Shown: piece after piece, positions 49,680-57,220 of the stretch
Position numbering within the stretch: position 1 is the stretch's first letter
Layout: the number at the start of each line of letters is the position of its first letter
Sequence record: NC_028840.1
Origin: Escherichia phage slur09
Reading direction: 5' to 3' (one strand)
DNA length: 64,000 nt
Program-made: the position numbers and the translations under genes
Notes under the pieces: model-generated
What the model was told of the DNA's origin: nothing
Databases searched by the model: none
Seen by the model: only the letters and a program-made list of their open reading frames with translations

Positions 49680-49756
49680 GGGGGTGTAATCGAATTGGCA
49701 TAGGTACTGGACTTAAAATTCAGGTTTTGTGGGTTCGAATCCCACCACCCCTACCA
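49680..49756 (+). tRNA. tRNA with Leu anticodon TAA on a short-variable-arm (type I) scaffold
   Basis: Acceptor GGGGGTG/CACCCCT, A73, D-loop AATTGGCAT, anticodon arm CTGGA-CTTAAAA-TTCAG, 5-nt variable loop, T-arm GTGGG-TTCGAAT-CCCAC. Confidence 0.6.
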
Positions 49757-52431: not shown

Positions 52432-52514
52432 GGGTCGTTAGCCAAGCGGTTTGGCGGTGGACTGTTAATCCATGTCGAAAGACAACGTAGGTTCGAATCC
52501 TACACGGCCCGCCA
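52432..52514 (+). tRNA. tRNA with Asn anticodon GTT on a long-variable-arm (type II) scaffold
   Basis: Acceptor GGGTCGT/ACGGCCC, G73, D-arm GCCA/TGGC, anticodon arm GTGGA-CTGTTAA-TCCAT, 13-nt variable arm with GTC-GAAA-GAC hairpin, T-arm GTAGG-TTCGAAT-CCTAC. Confidence 0.6.
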
Positions 52515-53384: not shown

Positions 53385-53505
53385 ATTCTAGCGTGGTTGA
53401 TGGGGAAACCAGCTTGGCTAGGGCAGAAGCTCGTTCGATTCGAGTGAAAGAATGGTTCTCGTAAGTCCGCACAAGTGATAACAGGTTCGAGTCCTGTCTA
53501 GAATG
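53385..53505 (+). ncRNA. tRNA-like RNA (about 121 nt) with a roughly 53-nt insertion in the anticodon arm
   Basis: Perfect 7-bp acceptor ATTCTAG/CTAGAAT; D-arm TGGT/ACCA with GG-containing loop; anticodon-type stem CTTG/CAAG enclosing 53418-53470; T-arm ACAGG-TTCGAGT-CCTGT. Confidence 0.4.
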
Positions 53506-53514
53506 ACACTATAA

Positions 53515-54845: not shown

Positions 54846-55083
54846 ATTTATATAAATTGATGAGGAGAAATCCTCATCATAGTTCACTAAGGTATTAGCT
54901 CGACCTAGGACTGGCTGCCAAAAAGCACGATCCCTTCTACTTGGGAGGAGTTCTAGATTAGTCCACTAGATTCAGTGGCAACTGAGTAGTGTATCGGGTT
55001 TGCGAGATGACGTAGTTCCTTCCGCTCGAAGCGAAGGTGCTGTAGTTACGCCGAGCTAATAGCCTTAGTAAACTAAAGAATTT

Positions 55084-55167: not shown

Positions 55168-55244
55168 GCGTGATTGATGGAATTGGCATACATACCGTCC
55201 TTAGAAGTCGGGTTTTGAGGGTTCGAATCCCTTGTCACGCACCA
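55168..55244 (+). tRNA. tRNA with Leu anticodon TAG on a short-variable-arm (type I) scaffold
   Basis: Acceptor GCGTGAT/GTCACGC, A73, D-loop AATTGGCAT, anticodon arm CCGTC-CTTAGAA-GTCGG (one U-U), T-arm GAGGG-TTCGAAT-CCCTT; paralogous to the tRNA at 49680. Confidence 0.6.
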
Positions 55245-55356
55245 AATTTGATGGTCAGAGTAAATTAAACCTACTATCTCGGTTGAGCTGTTTTAATGGG
55301 TTCGAATCCCAGCGAGGCGTAACTGCCTGGTGTGATAGAGGCATCATCTTATTATT

Positions 55357-55447
55357 GGAAGAGCAAATCGAATTGGCGACGAAAACCGCTTGGAAAGTGG
55401 CTGACTGGTAAAACGGCTTGAGAGTTCAAATCTCTCCTCTTCCGCCA
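55357..55447 (+). tRNA. tRNA-Ser (anticodon GGA), long variable arm
   Basis: Acceptor GGAAGAG/CTCTTCC, G73, anticodon arm CCGC-TTGGAAA-GTGG, long variable arm, T-arm GAGAG-TTCAAAT-CTCTC, encoded CCA. Confidence 0.65.
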
Positions 55448-55459
55448 AACAATTTATAT

Positions 55460-55554
55460 GGTAGGTCAATCCAATGGCTGGCGCTGGACTCCGACTTGAA
55501 ATCGGTTGATCGTAGTGATACGGTGTAAGGGTTCGATCCCCTTACCTACCTCCA
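55460..55554 (+). tRNA. tRNA-Ser (anticodon TGA), long variable arm
   Basis: Acceptor GGTAGGT/ACCTACC, anticodon arm CCGA-CTTGAAA-TCGG, long variable arm, T-arm AAGGG-TTCGATC-CCCTT, encoded CCA. Confidence 0.65.
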
Positions 55555-55559
55555 AGTCT

Positions 55560-55691
55560 TGAAGTATGCCGGAATCGGTAGACGGGGCTGCCTAAAAGGT
55601 TTACAGGGAACATCCACTCCTTGCAACATACCTCATAAAGCGGCTGAGATAAATGGTCTATCTCGTGAAGGTTCAAGTCCTTCTGCTTCTT
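55560..55691 (+). ncRNA. tRNA-like RNA (about 132 nt): type II-like scaffold with a roughly 48-nt insertion in the anticodon arm
   Basis: Acceptor TGAAGTA/TGCTTCT (6 of 7 pairs, U1-U72), D-arm CCG-GAATCGGTAGA-CGG, anticodon-type stem GCTGC/GCGGC enclosing 55592-55639, variable hairpin GAGATA/TATCTC, T-arm GAAGG-TTCAAGT-CCTTC; no CCA. Confidence 0.35.
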
Positions 55692-55802
55692 GATACATCT
55701 ATGGCTCAAAGTGTAACGGTGCTATTTGATGCTCTTAGTAAGACTTTCCCGACATGCGTTCGGGAGTAAGCTGCTAAGGCTAGAGTAGAAGAGTTTCTGA
55801 GA

Positions 55803-55925
55803 GCCGCCACAATTGAAAATTCGTACTCGTCTTGAGCTGCGTGCAATAGGAGATAACTTGATTAGTATTCTAGAACATGCTAATTGAGGATGGTTTCGCT
55901 AACCCTGCGAGTTTTCAATTGTGGC
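55803..55925 (+). repeat. 14-bp perfect inverted repeat (GCCACAATTGAAAA / TTTTCAATTGTGGC, extendable to about 18 bp with one mismatch) flanking a 95-bp core; 3' arm overlaps the 5' end of tRNA-His
   Basis: Arms at 55803-55816 and 55912-55925 are exact reverse complements. Confidence 0.55.
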
Positions 55926-55997
55926 TATATCATAATTGGTTAATGATCCTGATTGTGAATCAGGCCTATGTGGATTCGAATTCCACTAGCCACCCCA
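55921..55997 (+). tRNA. tRNA-His (anticodon GTG)
   Basis: Acceptor GTGGCTA/TAGCCAC, anticodon arm CCTGA-TTGTGAA-TCAGG, T-arm GTGGA-TTCGAAT-TCCAC, encoded CCA. Confidence 0.8.
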
Positions 55998-56624: not shown

Positions 56625-56700
56625 GCGGTTAAGCACACGGGTTGTGTCGCAGGCCTTCCAAGCCTCGCTGAGTAGGGTTCGATTCCCTCTAGCCGCTCCA
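56625..56700 (+). tRNA. tRNA-Gly (anticodon TCC)
   Basis: Acceptor GCGGTTA/TAGCCGC, D-arm CACA/TGTG, anticodon arm AGGC-CTTCCAA-GCCT, T-loop TTCGATT, encoded CCA. Confidence 0.7.
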
Positions 56701-57133: not shown

Positions 57134-57220
57134 GCTGGGTTGGCAGAATGGTTGAATGCACCTGATTTGTAATCAGGAGGAGTAATCCCGTTGCAGGTTC
57201 GAATCCTGTGCCCAGCACCA
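57134..57220 (+). tRNA. tRNA with Thr anticodon TGT on a long-variable-arm (type II, Leu-like) scaffold
   Basis: Acceptor GCTGGGT/GCCCAGC (G1-C72, C2-G71), A73, D-arm GCA-GAATGGTTGAA-TGC, anticodon arm CCTGA-TTTGTAA-TCAGG, 15-nt variable arm, T-arm GCAGG-TTCGAAT-CCTGT, encoded CCA. Confidence 0.6.

What the first reader, a model, noticed from the sequence alone, without database searches (positions are those of the whole stretch)
55560..55691. Third tRNA-like element: type II-like scaffold with a 48-nt anticodon-loop insertion
Acceptor stem with a U1-U72 mismatch, a Leu/Ser-type D-arm (3-bp stem, 11-nt loop GAATCGGTAGA), a long variable-arm hairpin and a canonical T-arm. The anticodon-type stem GCTGC/GCGGC encloses 48 nt. 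The insert begins CTAAAA and ends CTCATAAA, which resemble fragments of Leu and Met anticodon loops. This is the third member of what looks like a family of expanded-anticodon-arm tRNA-like RNAs in the cluster.
Basis: seen in the sequence. Interest (0 to 1): 0.7.

Follow-up and report, generated by a model that had tools for sequence, protein, structure and literature searches.

The report
Known T5 tRNA-like RNA1, function unknown
This 132-base stretch is a real, strongly conserved tRNA-shaped RNA gene of T5-like phages, already annotated in phages T5 and BF23 as "RNA1, tRNA-like RNA with unknown functions"; its anticodon loop is replaced by a long conserved arm, so it almost certainly does not decode codons, and what it does is still unknown.

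Summary
Window 55560-55691 (+) folds as a long-variable-arm (type II) tRNA cloverleaf whose anticodon stem encloses 48 nt. ARAGORN with intron search and my covariance model both return exactly these coordinates.

The structure is real. In 24 distinct homologs, 95.4% of cells pair, against 39-50% for slid controls. Sixteen of 36 pairs keep pairing through changes on both sides, and all seven helices are covered.

It is not new. It is the ortholog of misc_RNA "RNA1" in T5 st0 and BF23, noted there as "tRNA-like RNA with unknown functions". It occurs in 491 phage records: E. coli, Salmonella and Klebsiella T5-like phages. An unannotated copy sits in Pectobacterium phage My1.

The scaffold looks tRNA-Leu-derived. 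The 48 nt form a rod of two helices and two A-rich internal loops, ending in a loop with a conserved CAUCC core. That loop is nearly invariant, while the bases that splicing would turn into an anticodon loop vary. There is no encoded CCA, the discriminator varies, and U1xU72 is conserved.

My best reading is a non-decoding tRNA mimic that presents the arm to an unknown partner. Splicing, pseudogene and coding readings are disfavoured. The "family" with RNA2 is architectural, not homologous.

The parts
55560..55691 (+). Whole RNA1 ortholog: tRNA-like RNA of 132 nt, from position 1 to the discriminator.
   Evidence: The covariance model hits 55560-55691 at 159.3 bits, E = 1.3e-43. ARAGORN with introns allowed gives the same coordinates. 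It aligns with T5 st0 misc_RNA rna1.
55560..55566 (+). Acceptor stem, 5' strand UGAAGUA. U1 is mismatched with U72.
   Evidence: It pairs with 55684-55690. Four of the 7 pairs change on both sides across homologs. U1xU72 is kept in 22 of 24 sequences and is G-U in the Klebsiella phages.
55569..55585 (+). D-arm: 3-bp stem CCG/CGG with the 11-nt loop GAAUCGGUAGA. U8 and G9 precede it.
   Evidence: It is invariant in T5-like phages. My1 has a C-G to U-A double change in the stem. G18, G19, A14 and A21 are present.
55587..55591 (+). Anticodon-type stem, 5' strand GCUGC.
   Evidence: It pairs with 55640-55644. Two pairs change on both sides (G-C to A-U, and G-C to U-A).
55592..55639 (+). The 48-nt extended arm that replaces the anticodon loop. 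It consists of A-rich internal loop 1 (55592-55596 / 55634-55639), the middle helix, internal loop 2 (55601-55603 / 55624-55629) and the apical hairpin.
   Evidence: The consensus fold and covariation support it. The invariant loop bases are listed.
55597..55600 (+). Middle helix, 5' strand AGGU. It pairs with ACCU at 55630-55633.
   Evidence: There is an A-U to G-C double change in Ob_P and Klebsiella types. 91.7-93.8% of cells pair.
55604..55623 (+). Apical hairpin CAGGGA-ACAUCCAC-UCCUUG.
   Evidence: Four of 6 stem pairs change on both sides, with up to 4 pair types per position.
55610..55617 (+). Apical loop ACAUCCAC with the conserved core CAUCC.
   Evidence: The 12-nt block GAACAUCCACUC is invariant in 21 distinct sequences. 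One T5 record has ACAUCCGC. My1 has GA-CAUCCUA-UC.
55640..55644 (+). Anticodon-type stem, 3' strand GCGGC.
   Evidence: See the 5' strand.
55646..55664 (+). Long variable arm: 6-bp stem GAGAUA/UAUCUC with the 7-nt loop AAUGGUC.
   Evidence: Within the T5-like set there is one A-U to U-A double change. Three pairs change on both sides once My1 is included.
55667..55683 (+). T-arm GAAGG-UUCAAGU-CCUUC.
   Evidence: This is a canonical T-loop. My1 has an A-U to U-A double change.
55684..55691 (+). Acceptor stem 3' strand UGCUUCU plus discriminator U. GAU follows, so no CCA is encoded.
   Evidence: Read from the sequence. The discriminator is U, C or A in different lineages.
55460..55554 (+). Context: tRNA-Ser(UGA) with encoded CCA, ending 5 nt upstream of RNA1.
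   Evidence: The tRNA-Sec model scores 37.6 bits here. Relatives annotate it as tRNA-Ser. My1 shows the same Ser-then-RNA1 order with a 5-nt spacer.
55703..55809 (+). Context: ortholog of the T5/BF23 stable RNA I (107 nt). Its ends pair as GGCUC...GAGCC, followed by GCCA.
   Evidence: Coordinates were transferred from T5 st0 through the alignment.
55814..55919 (+). Context: ortholog of the T5/BF23 stable RNA III, directly upstream of tRNA-His (55921-55997).

Best explanation
Window 55560-55691 is the ortholog of RNA1 of phages T5 and BF23. It is a non-coding, non-decoding tRNA mimic that most likely arose from a long-variable-arm tRNA-Leu gene.

Shown here:
- The cloverleaf is conserved: acceptor, D, variable and T arms, with the elbow nucleotides kept.
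- The 7-nt anticodon loop is replaced by a conserved rod of about 48 nt. The rod has two helices and two A-rich internal loops, and ends in a loop whose core CAUCC is conserved from T5-like phages to Pectobacterium phage My1.
- Every helix keeps pairing through compensatory changes, while the apical loop is nearly invariant.
- The element lies in the + strand tRNA operon, 5 nt after the CCA of tRNA-Ser(UGA).

Inferred:
- It is co-transcribed with the tRNAs from the upstream early promoter.
- It is cut out by the host tRNA-maturation machinery: RNase P at U1 and 3' trimming, possibly followed by CCA addition.
- It accumulates as a stable L-shaped RNA.
- It cannot decode, because the arm is roughly 13-15 helix steps too long and has no U33-type loop.
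- It is probably not aminoacylated. The discriminator is U, C or A, U1xU72 is conserved, and the A73 needed by E. coli LeuRS is absent in E. coli and Salmonella phages (A73 requirement from my own knowledge).
- The tRNA body supplies processing, stability and tRNA-likeness, and the arm with its CAUCC loop is the working end that binds a partner.

My estimates for the partner:
- About 35%: a protein that normally handles tRNA. About 15-20% of this is specifically a host tRNA-targeting defence nuclease or sensor, with RNA1 acting as decoy or inhibitor.
- About 12%: an RNA bound by loop base-pairing.
- About 15%: no trans-acting partner, only a processing or stability role.
- The rest: unknown.

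The confidence given below applies to the general statement (ortholog of RNA1; selected, structured, non-decoding tRNA mimic whose arm is the functional module). It does not apply to any specific partner.
For: Identity:
- The element aligns with T5 st0 misc_RNA rna1 and lies in the same order: RNA1, RNA I, RNA III, tRNA-His.

Structure and selection:
- 95.1-95.4% of cells pair, against 39-50% in slid controls. 12 to 16 of 36 pairs change on both sides, against 1-3 in slid controls, and no shuffle of 500 reaches the observed covariation score.
- RNAalifold independently recovers the same helices apart from the D stem, for which it draws an alternative pairing.

Apical loop as the constrained part:
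- Twelve consecutive columns (GAACAUCCACUC) are invariant above a stem with up to four pair types per position.
- My1 keeps GA-CAUCC..-UC.

Not a decoder:
- The bases that would form an anticodon loop after removal of 40-41 nt differ between lineages. T5 gives CUUAAAA; the window, Ob_P and Klebsiella types give CUAAAAA or CUAAAAC.
- No CCA is encoded, whereas the neighbouring tRNAs I printed encode it.

Leu ancestry:
- The best non-self hits of the model are tRNA-Leu genes: 34.5 and 29.6 bits in the window, 39.2 in My1, 46.6 in pVp-1 and 41.1 in T4.

Retention:
- It is present at >=80% coverage in 491 phage records, including 71 Klebsiella phages. RNA I plus RNA III are found in only 361 records.

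Processing context:
- A 5-nt spacer follows the tRNA-Ser CCA both in the window and in My1.

Background plausibility of tRNA-linked counter-defence in T5:
- Several defence nucleases that cut the anticodon arm act during T5 infection (PMC13056530).
Against: - No expression, end-mapping, aminoacylation or binding data could be examined here. In BF23, RNA1 is called 'tRNA-like RNA', while RNA I, III, IV and 2H are called 'stable RNA'. Its accumulation may therefore never have been shown.
- No partner was identified. No complement of 9 nt or more to the loop exists in the window. The arm has no similarity to E. coli DNA. No Rfam motif matches. No neighbouring protein is conserved between T5, Ob_P and My1.
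- The sequence diversity is shallow: three to four lineages plus one outgroup. The shuffle controls therefore overstate significance; the slid controls are the fairer comparison.
- The T5-type sequence does give a perfect tRNA-Leu(UAA) anticodon arm if 40 nt are removed. This keeps a splicing reading alive for that lineage.
- The decoy idea rests on analogy only.
Confidence: 0.6

Rival explanations
1. Processing or punctuation element only. RNA1 is kept because its tRNA shape directs RNase P and 3' processing of the polycistronic early transcript. This would release tRNA-Ser or the upstream ORF on one side, and RNA I, RNA III or the downstream ORF on the other. It might also stabilise them. 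It has no function of its own in trans.
For: It sits between other processed units, 5 nt after the tRNA-Ser CCA and 11 nt before RNA I. In My1 it is followed within 17 nt by an ORF with a ribosome-binding site. In T5 an ORF precedes it.
Against: A processing signal needs only the acceptor and T arms. It does not explain a 12-nt invariant apical block on a covarying stem, the conserved A-rich internal loops, or the conserved variable-arm loop. The neighbours differ between lineages while RNA1 stays.
Confidence: 0.15
2. Base-pairing regulator on a tRNA scaffold. The single-stranded apical loop (A)CAUCC(AC) pairs with a GGAUG-containing site in a phage or host RNA. The tRNA body gives processing and stability.
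For: The apical loop is invariant while its stem is free to vary, which is the pattern expected of a seed. The loop is 7-8 nt and exposed.
Against: The core conserved as far as My1 is only 5 nt. No complement of 9 nt or more exists in the 64-kb window, and the 7-8-nt matches are at chance level and not in notable places. One T5 record carries A to G within the loop. Only about half of the phage genome, and no host genome, could be scanned for targets.
Confidence: 0.12
3. Intron-containing pre-tRNA. The 40-41 nt are removed and the halves rejoined, by an unknown endonuclease plus a ligase such as host RtcB, or by self-splicing. This would give a working long-variable-arm tRNA, which would be Leu(UAA) in T5.
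For: With introns allowed, ARAGORN models all four lineage types I tested as tRNA plus a 40-41-nt intron, and the T5 type gives a perfect CUUAAAA loop. One genome record annotates it as tRNA-Phe(aaa) of 135 nt. A 4-bp helix flanked by unpaired bases faintly recalls a bulge-helix-bulge motif.
Against: The conservation pattern is the reverse of an intron's. The 'intron' apex is invariant, and the would-be anticodon loop varies: UAA in T5, AAA elsewhere, with G33 or C33 in some registers. 48 nt is far below group I size, and no intron or ribozyme family matches at E<=10. The loops flanking the 4-bp helix are two-sided internal loops of 5/6 and 3/6 nt, not 3-nt bulges. Cutting there would leave a loop of the wrong size. 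There is no CCA, the discriminator is U or C, and U1xU72 is kept, so it would be a poor LeuRS and EF-Tu substrate (A73 requirement from my own knowledge). The phages already carry tRNA-Leu(UAA) and tRNA-Leu(UAG).
Confidence: 0.04
4. Decaying tRNA-Leu pseudogene, or a scar of a mobile-element or homing-endonuclease insertion, with no function.
For: The tRNA region of T5-like phages is full of HNH homing endonuclease genes and is mosaic. The A-rich sequences on both sides of the insert look like a duplicated loop. Standard tools do not call it a tRNA.
Against: Sixteen of 36 pairs are kept through double changes, and 95% of cells pair. The loops are invariant. It is retained full-length in 491 records and in a different subfamily. 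A decaying gene would lose pairing and be deleted often in this mosaic region.
Confidence: 0.02
5. Protein-coding. A small ORF, such as the 44-aa TTG-start ORF at 55559-55693 (+) or the 55-aa ORF on the minus strand, is the real feature. Several genome records annotate a 'hypothetical protein' here.
For: ORFs of 27-55 aa overlap the element. Some records list hypothetical proteins under the match.
Against: The ORFs use weak start codons and are of chance length. The substitutions are paired across helices rather than falling at codon third positions. T5-type sequences carry a 1-nt deletion inside the + strand ORF. The curated T5 and BF23 records annotate an RNA.
Confidence: 0.01

Closest known systems
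RNA1 (gene rna1) of phages T5 st0 (GenBank AY692264) and BF23 (AJ604530), annotated 'tRNA-like RNA with unknown functions'
   Same: It is an ortholog. The window query matched T5 at 92.6% identity over the stretch spanning RNA1 through RNA III to the start of tRNA-His, and the two-sequence alignment of that stretch has 95% mean column identity. The position is the same (after tRNA-Ser, before RNA I, RNA III and tRNA-His), the strand is the same, and the fold is the same.
   Different: The window belongs to a sequence variant (type A). Compared with T5, it has compensatory changes in the acceptor stem, the anticodon-type stem and the apical stem. It also has one extra base in internal loop 1, where CUCAUAAA replaces CUUAAAA. 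The deposited feature is 144 nt because it runs 2 nt upstream and up to the start of RNA I. The cloverleaf itself is 131-132 nt.
RNA2 (rna2) of BF23/T5; window 53385-53508
   Same: It has the same annotation class ('tRNA-like RNA with unknown functions') and lies in the same operon. It is a cloverleaf with acceptor, D and T arms and an enlarged central arm.
   Different: It is not detectably homologous: the RNA1 model gives no hit even at E<=10. It has no long variable arm. Its 5-bp D stem is different, and its insert is different and contains an internal T-arm-like hairpin. It has no CAUCC loop.
Phage T4 species 1 and species 2 RNAs (rnaC, rnaD)
   Same: These are small stable RNAs of unknown function encoded at the end of a phage tRNA cluster. 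They are made from the same primary transcript as the tRNAs (PMC2330249; annotation). rnaC ends in a T-arm-like hairpin, CCGGG-UUCGAAU-CCCGG.
   Different: There is no homology: the RNA1 model hits only T4 tRNA-Leu. Whether they share the cloverleaf-plus-long-arm architecture was not examined.
Bacterial-type long-variable-arm (type II) tRNA-Leu, e.g. tRNA-Leu(UAA)
   Same: The D-loop GGAAUYGGUAGAC, the T-loop GGUUCAAGUCC and a long variable arm are shared. tRNA-Leu genes are the best non-self hits of the RNA1 model in four phages. The T5 type contains CUUAAAA next to the 3' strand of the stem.
   Different: There is no 7-nt anticodon loop and no encoded CCA. The discriminator is U, C or A rather than A73, and U1xU72 is mismatched. 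The element is missed by Rfam tRNA and by default ARAGORN. The phage's own working tRNA-Leu genes have short variable arms.
Intron-containing pre-tRNAs: archaeal/eukaryotic bulge-helix-bulge introns, and the cyanobacterial tRNA-Leu(UAA) group I intron
   Same: An insertion in the anticodon loop of a tRNA-shaped RNA extends the anticodon arm. In cyanobacteria the host gene is also tRNA-Leu(UAA) (from my own knowledge).
   Different: There is no bulge-helix-bulge geometry and no group I core, since 48 nt is too short (no Rfam hit). No conserved mature anticodon loop would result. The insert apex is the most conserved part. No splicing endonuclease is known in these hosts or phages (my own knowledge).
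tRNA-like modules in other non-decoding RNAs (tmRNA, bacterial Y-RNA-like YrlA)
   Same: They work on the same principle: a tRNA elbow and acceptor mimic is joined to a non-tRNA functional domain that takes the place of the anticodon arm.
   Different: ARAGORN finds no tmRNA, and no Rfam tmRNA or YrlA hit appears at E<=10. RNA1 keeps a full D-arm and variable arm and has no reading frame. YrlA has the opposite topology, with its ends in the non-tRNA stem (my own knowledge).

Membership tests
T5/BF23 RNA1 (tRNA-like RNA with unknown functions) | Sequence homology to the annotated rna1 feature | tested here: met
   The element aligns base for base with T5 st0 rna1 and is linked to BF23 rna1 by BLAST (H151). 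The covariance model scores 146-161 bits for all E. coli, Salmonella and Obesumbacterium phage copies, 135-141 bits for the Klebsiella phage copies, and 81.7 bits for My1.
T5/BF23 RNA1 (tRNA-like RNA with unknown functions) | Same genomic position and strand in the tRNA operon | tested here: met
   The order tRNA-Ser(UGA), RNA1, RNA I, RNA III, tRNA-His is found in the window, T5 and BF23.
T5/BF23 RNA1 (tRNA-like RNA with unknown functions) | Made as an RNA in infected cells | not testable with these tools
   No expression data were accessible. The open-access literature searches found nothing on RNA1.
Canonical tRNA (Rfam RF00005) | Cloverleaf with acceptor, D and T arms and elbow nucleotides | tested here: met
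   All helices are supported by covariation. U8, A14, G18, G19, the UUC of the T-loop and A58 are present.
Canonical tRNA (Rfam RF00005) | 7-nt anticodon loop with U33 and a conserved anticodon | tested here: not met
   The stem encloses 48 nt. No conserved 7-nt loop can be derived in any register.
Canonical tRNA (Rfam RF00005) | Reaches the family score threshold or is detected by the standard tool | tested here: not met
   There is no RF00005 hit at the gathering score or at E<=10, and default ARAGORN does not call it.
Canonical tRNA (Rfam RF00005) | Aminoacylation and use in translation | not testable with these tools
   Indirect signs argue against it: no encoded CCA, a variable discriminator, and a conserved U1xU72 mismatch.
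Intron-containing tRNA, bulge-helix-bulge type | Two 3-nt bulges on opposite strands separated by a 4-bp helix, placed so that excision leaves a 7-nt loop | tested here: not met
   The 4-bp helix (55597-55600 / 55630-55633) is flanked by two-sided internal loops of 5/6 and 3/6 nt. Cuts there would leave an oversized loop. This was read from the consensus structure.
Intron-containing tRNA, group I intron type | Group I catalytic core, usually 200 nt or more | tested here: not met
   The insert is 47-48 nt, and no Intron_gpI or other ribozyme family matches at E<=10.
Intron-containing tRNA, any type | Exon sequence (the mature anticodon loop) more conserved than the intron | tested here: not met
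   The apical block is invariant, while the flanking would-be loop bases vary between lineages.
tmRNA | tRNA-like domain plus a tag reading frame | tested here: not met
   ARAGORN's tRNA and tmRNA search finds no tmRNA in the window. No Rfam tmRNA hit appears.
   The RNA1 model finds one copy only. The RNA2 region (53385-53508) is not hit at E<=10. The resemblance is architectural.

The most novel reading that the evidence does not exclude
RNA1 is an anti-defence tRNA mimic. It is an uncleavable, non-decoding decoy with a long-variable-arm tRNA body and a lengthened anticodon arm. It would bind and block, or mislead, a host tRNA-directed immune nuclease or sensor during T5-like infection. That would be the RNA counterpart of the phage tRNAs already known to rescue infection from PARIS, Retron-Eco7 and similar systems. 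In the same phages the working tRNA-Leu genes have lost the long variable arm, and RNA1 alone keeps it.
Probability: 0.15. Interest if true: 0.8.

Novelty: already known. Interest (0 to 1): 0.42.

Why it matters
T5-like phages carry the largest tRNA sets among the classic coliphages. Their tRNA region is now known to be a front line against tRNA-cleaving defence systems.

RNA1 is one of several small RNAs there that are annotated in T5 and BF23 but have never been explained. None of the other phage genome records I opened annotates it as an RNA. One calls it tRNA-Phe(aaa), and several place a hypothetical protein over it. No Rfam family matched it.

This analysis adds four things:
- It is under clear structural selection.
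- It is more widely retained in phage records than the neighbouring RNA I and RNA III.
- It extends to Klebsiella phages and to a different subfamily (My1).
- Its most constrained part is a CAUCC loop at the tip of a long arm.

These points give concrete mutants and baits for finding its partner. If the partner turns out to be a defence nuclease or another tRNA-handling enzyme, RNA1 would be a new kind of phage counter-measure. If not, it remains an ordinary, if unexplained, phage stable RNA.

Tried and rejected
1. Standard detection. Default ARAGORN and Rfam, at the gathering score and at E<=10, give nothing on the element.
2. Target search for the apical loop. No complement of 9 nt or more occurs in the window, and shorter matches are at chance level.
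3. Host origin of the arm or of the in-silico 'spliced' tRNA. Neither gives a BLAST match in 5,426 E. coli genomes. The second result is uninformative, because short tRNA matches cannot reach significance in 28 Gb.
4. Wider homolog hunts.
   - Two viral-contig scans found only T5-like copies.
   - A loop-independent metagenome scan found 8 contigs, all T5-like.
   - A relaxed viral scan gave 77 loci, of which only My1 and the T5-likes are real.
   - A bacterial-genome scan gave 49 loci, none real.
   - Vibrio phage pVp-1 has none in its first 50 kb, which include its tRNA region.
5. Homology to T4 species 1 and 2 RNAs: none.
6. A conserved neighbouring protein as candidate partner: the ORFs next to RNA1 in T5, Ob_P and My1 are unrelated.
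7. A tertiary kiss between the apical loop (CCA / CCG / UCCUA) and the variable-arm loop (UGG / UGGGA). Only 3 bp are possible in T5-likes and 5 bp in My1. This is too little complementarity and too little diversity to claim, so I dropped it.
8. Anti-Shine-Dalgarno mimicry. The window's AUCCACUCCUU resembles the 16S rRNA 3' end as I remember it (not checked with a tool), but the CUCC part is not conserved in Klebsiella phages or My1. I rejected it.
9. Reading the apical loop as an anticodon loop (UCC, CCA or CAU registers). There is no U33, and no register is conserved. I rejected it.
10. Literature. Six full-text searches found no paper on RNA1 or on T5 tRNA-like RNAs in the open-access library. 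The original work is probably in journals the library does not hold.
Full report
**What is there**

The window is from a T5-like phage. The closest records are Salmonella phages Kenya-K20 and Kenya-K16, genus Tequintavirus. Positions 44.8-58.2 kb hold a + strand tRNA cluster.

The finding, 55560-55691, lies 5 nt after the encoded CCA of a tRNA-Ser(UGA) at 55460-55554. It lies 11 nt before a 107-nt element that ends in GCCA.

- a seven-position acceptor stem with U1xU72;
- U8 and G9, then a 3-bp D stem with the loop GAAUCGGUAGA;
- a stem GCUGC/GCGGC enclosing exactly 48 nt;
- a 6-bp variable arm;
- a canonical T-arm;
- a U discriminator, with no CCA after it.

**Is it more than chance?**

Default ARAGORN and Rfam do not report the element, at the gathering score or at E<=10. 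When ARAGORN is allowed introns of 0-100 nt, it adds exactly one gene in the whole window on both strands, at 55560-55691.

The single-sequence MFE structure is the cloverleaf with an extended arm. It scores -39.4 kcal/mol with z = -2.07. The arm alone gives z = -2.48.

The decisive evidence is comparative. I collected homologs from annotated phage genomes, IMG/VR and metagenomes and aligned 21 distinct sequences.
- For the structure I wrote down, 95.1% of cells form standard pairs. When the 3' partners are slid by 1-3 columns, only 39-50% do.
- Twelve of 36 pairs keep pairing through changes on both sides, against 1-2 for the slid versions.
- RNAalifold predicts the same helices on its own, except for the D stem, where it draws an alternative.
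- After adding the Pectobacterium phage My1 copy through the covariance model, 16 of 36 pairs show double changes, and each of the seven helices has at least one.

That last alignment is fitted to the model, which favours the structure. The diversity is only three to four lineages plus one outgroup, so I rely on the slid controls rather than the shuffles.

**What it is**

BLAST links the region to T5 strain st0 (AY692264). There the matching interval is annotated, in order, as misc_RNA RNA1 (144 nt), RNA I (107 nt), RNA III (106 nt) and tRNA-His.

The BF23 tRNA-region record (AJ604530) gives the same features with notes. RNA1 and RNA2 are each a 'tRNA-like RNA with unknown functions'. RNA I, III, IV and 2H are each a 'stable RNA with unknown functions'.

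The finding is therefore the ortholog of a feature that the T5/BF23 sequencing group had already recognised as tRNA-like. Of the other records I opened, none annotates an RNA there. Listed matches mostly have nothing under them or a 'hypothetical protein', and JLBYU43 calls it tRNA-Phe(aaa) of 135 nt. Six full-text searches found no open-access paper that discusses RNA1.

**Distribution**

The element is found at >=80% coverage in 491 phage records. These include Salmonella, Escherichia and 71 Klebsiella (Sugarlandvirus) phages, as well as Citrobacter, Yersinia and Obesumbacterium phages.

This is wider than the adjacent RNA I plus RNA III, which are found in 361 records and at full length in 242.

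The covariance model built from the alignment found an unannotated full-length copy in Pectobacterium phage My1 of subfamily Mccorquodalevirinae, at 81.7 bits. It again lies 5 nt after a tRNA-Ser.

No copy was found in the first 50 kb of Vibrio phage pVp-1. None was found among 49 bacterial loci from a pattern scan. None was found in further viral or metagenome scans beyond T5-likes.

**Anatomy of the arm**

The 48 nt do not form a loop. They form a rod with these parts:
- internal loop 1, with 5 nt on one strand and 6 on the other, A-rich, with C33, A35, A36, A76, A78 and A79 invariant;
- a 4-bp helix AGGU/ACCU, which becomes GGG/CCC in the Ob_P and Klebsiella types;
- internal loop 2, UUA against CAACAU, with U43, A44, A66, A67, A69 and U70 invariant;
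- a 5-6-bp apical stem;
- an 8-nt loop, ACAUCCAC.

The apical stem is the fastest-covarying part, with up to four pair types per position. Directly above it, twelve consecutive columns (GAACAUCCACUC) are invariant in the 21 sequences. One T5 record has ACAUCCGC. My1 has GA-CAUCCUA-UC. The deeply conserved core is therefore CAUCC.

**Ancestry**

Apart from RNA1 itself, the model's best hits are always tRNA-Leu genes:
- the window's tRNA-Leu(UAA) and tRNA-Leu(UAG), at 34.5 and 29.6 bits;
- long-variable-arm Leu-type genes in My1 (39.2 bits) and pVp-1 (46.6 bits);
- T4 tRNA-Leu, at 41.1 bits.

ARAGORN reads the T5-type sequence as tRNA-Leu(UAA) with a 40-nt insert. A long-variable-arm tRNA-Leu ancestor is thus likely.

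The window's working tRNA-Leu genes have short variable arms: they are 77 nt including CCA. RNA1 is the only Leu-like RNA here that keeps the long arm.

**Why it is unlikely to be a tRNA or a pre-tRNA**

- If 40-41 nt were removed, the resulting loop would be CUUAAAA in T5 but CUAAAAA or CUAAAAC in the other lineages. Other registers give G33 or C33.
- The conservation pattern is the opposite of exon versus intron.
- The insert is far too small for a group I intron. No ribozyme or intron family matches.
- The unpaired regions around the 4-bp helix are two-sided internal loops, not the two 3-nt bulges of a bulge-helix-bulge site.
- No CCA is encoded, although the neighbouring tRNAs I printed encode it.
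- The discriminator is U, C or A.
- The U1xU72 mismatch is retained in 22 of 24 sequences.
- From my own knowledge, E. coli LeuRS needs A73, and a 1-72 mismatch weakens EF-Tu binding.
- The arm adds roughly 13-15 helix steps, so the tip cannot sit where an anticodon sits on the ribosome (inference).

**Why it is not a relic or a protein gene**

Pairing is maintained by double changes in all helices, the loops are invariant, and the element is retained in a mosaic region where its neighbours come and go. The overlapping ORFs are 27-55 aa, mostly with weak start codons, and T5-type sequences carry a 1-nt deletion inside the + strand ORF.

**How it most likely works**

Shown:
- a selected cloverleaf;
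- a conserved arm with a constrained apical loop;
- its position within the tRNA operon.

Inferred:
- co-transcription from the upstream early promoter, annotated P13b in T5 and BF23;
- excision by RNase P and 3' processing, as for the flanking tRNAs;
- accumulation as a stable L-shaped RNA;
- a tRNA body that confers processing, stability and recognition by tRNA-binding proteins, with the arm and its CAUCC loop making the specific contact.

My estimates for the partner are a tRNA-handling protein at about 35%. About 15-20% of that is specifically a host tRNA-directed defence nuclease or sensor, with RNA1 as decoy. I put an RNA partner at about 12% and a purely cis processing or stability role at about 15%.

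The decoy idea draws only on context. Several defence nucleases that cut the anticodon arm are active in T5 infection, and phage tRNAs are known counter-measures (PMC13056530). I found no direct evidence for any partner:
- no complementary target in the window;
- no similarity of the arm to E. coli DNA;
- no conserved neighbouring protein;
- no known RNA motif.

**The 'family' claim**

Window 53385-53508 is the ortholog of BF23 RNA2. It also folds as a cloverleaf with an enlarged central arm. Two tRNA-like RNAs with expanded middle arms therefore do exist in this cluster, as the T5/BF23 annotators recorded. The RNA1 model does not detect RNA2 or any other paralog, and their D arms, variable regions and inserts differ. 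The likeness is one of architecture, not demonstrable common descent.

**Comparison with known things, and verdict**

The closest known entity is RNA1 of T5 and BF23 itself. The closest analogs are BF23 RNA2 and the T4 species 1 and 2 RNAs. The T4 RNAs are also made from the tRNA-cluster transcript and also have no known function (PMC2330249).

The element is already known as an annotated feature, so I rate its novelty accordingly. This analysis adds:
- covariation support for the structure;
- the definition of the arm and its CAUCC loop;
- evidence for Leu ancestry;
- the wider distribution, including My1 and the Klebsiella phages;
- arguments against the splicing, pseudogene and coding readings.

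Interest is moderate. The function is a decades-old open question, and tRNA-centred phage-host conflict now makes it topical.

Noticed in passing
window 49680-49756 and 55168-55244: The phage's tRNA-Leu(UAA) and tRNA-Leu(UAG) genes are only 77 nt including CCA, so they have short variable arms. This is atypical for bacterial-type tRNA-Leu. The BF23 record notes that its tRNA-Leu becomes an effective amber suppressor when the anticodon is changed, so such Leu tRNAs function. RNA1 is the only Leu-like RNA here with a long variable arm.
   Followed up: partly
window 55357-55447, 55460-55554 and 56625-56700: Three probable real tRNAs are missed by ARAGORN and by Rfam tRNA at the gathering score: Ser(GGA), Ser(UGA) and Gly(UCC). 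All have encoded CCA and unusual D-arms. The two Ser genes hit only the tRNA-Sec model, below its threshold. Relatives annotate them as tRNA-Ser and tRNA-Gly.
   Followed up: partly
window 53385-53508: This is the ortholog of BF23 'rna2' (tRNA-like RNA with unknown functions). It has a 7-bp acceptor stem, a 5-bp D stem and a T-arm. Its 64-nt central arm contains an internal T-arm-like hairpin, GCUCG-UUCGAUU-CGAGU. Compared with BF23, there is one compensatory change in the T stem.
   Followed up: partly
window 55703-55809 and 55814-55919: These are orthologs of the T5/BF23 stable RNAs I and III. RNA I folds as a rod whose ends pair (GGCUC/GAGCC) and are followed by GCCA, which gives it an acceptor-like end (z = -2.32). 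RNA III lies directly against tRNA-His. Their functions are unknown.
   Followed up: partly
window about 54884-55065: This is the ortholog of the T5/BF23 stable RNA '2H' (172 nt), downstream of the annotated promoter P13b and closed by a long-range stem (GGUAUUAGCUCG...CGAGCUAAUAGCC). No function is known.
   Followed up: no
window 55245-55356: This 112-nt gap between tRNA-Leu(UAG) and tRNA-Ser(GGA) is unannotated. It contains an orphan T-arm-like hairpin, AUGGG-UUCGAAU-CCCAG, at 55296-55312. It may be a tRNA remnant. T5 has an HNH endonuclease gene at this position.
   Followed up: no
window 57134-57220 and 52432-52514: tRNA-Thr (87 nt) and tRNA-Asn (83 nt) have unusually long variable regions for these amino-acid specificities.
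   Followed up: no
L078 4174-4359 (IMGVR_UViG_3300029822_000106): An unrelated viral contig carries a long-variable-arm tRNA-like gene with encoded CCA and an insertion of about 100 nt in the anticodon loop. Default ARAGORN does not detect it. The RNA1 model hits it weakly, at 28.9 bits. Large anticodon-arm insertions in viral tRNA-like genes may be more widespread.
   Followed up: partly
L004 580-740 (Klebsiella phage GZ8) and relatives: In Klebsiella Sugarlandvirus phages the flanks of RNA1 can extend the acceptor pairing to 12 of 13 positions (CGCGUUGAUGCCG with CGGGGUUAGCGUG). The neighbours are different too, with no tRNA-Ser upstream and no RNA I or RNA III downstream. The ends of RNA1 may therefore differ there. 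I read this by eye.
   Followed up: no
L041 992-1122 (T5 record of 121,750 bp in IMG/VR): This T5 record has ACAUCCGC in the apical loop, where T5 st0 and all the other T5-like copies I aligned have ACAUCCAC. It is either a true strain difference or a sequencing difference.
   Followed up: no
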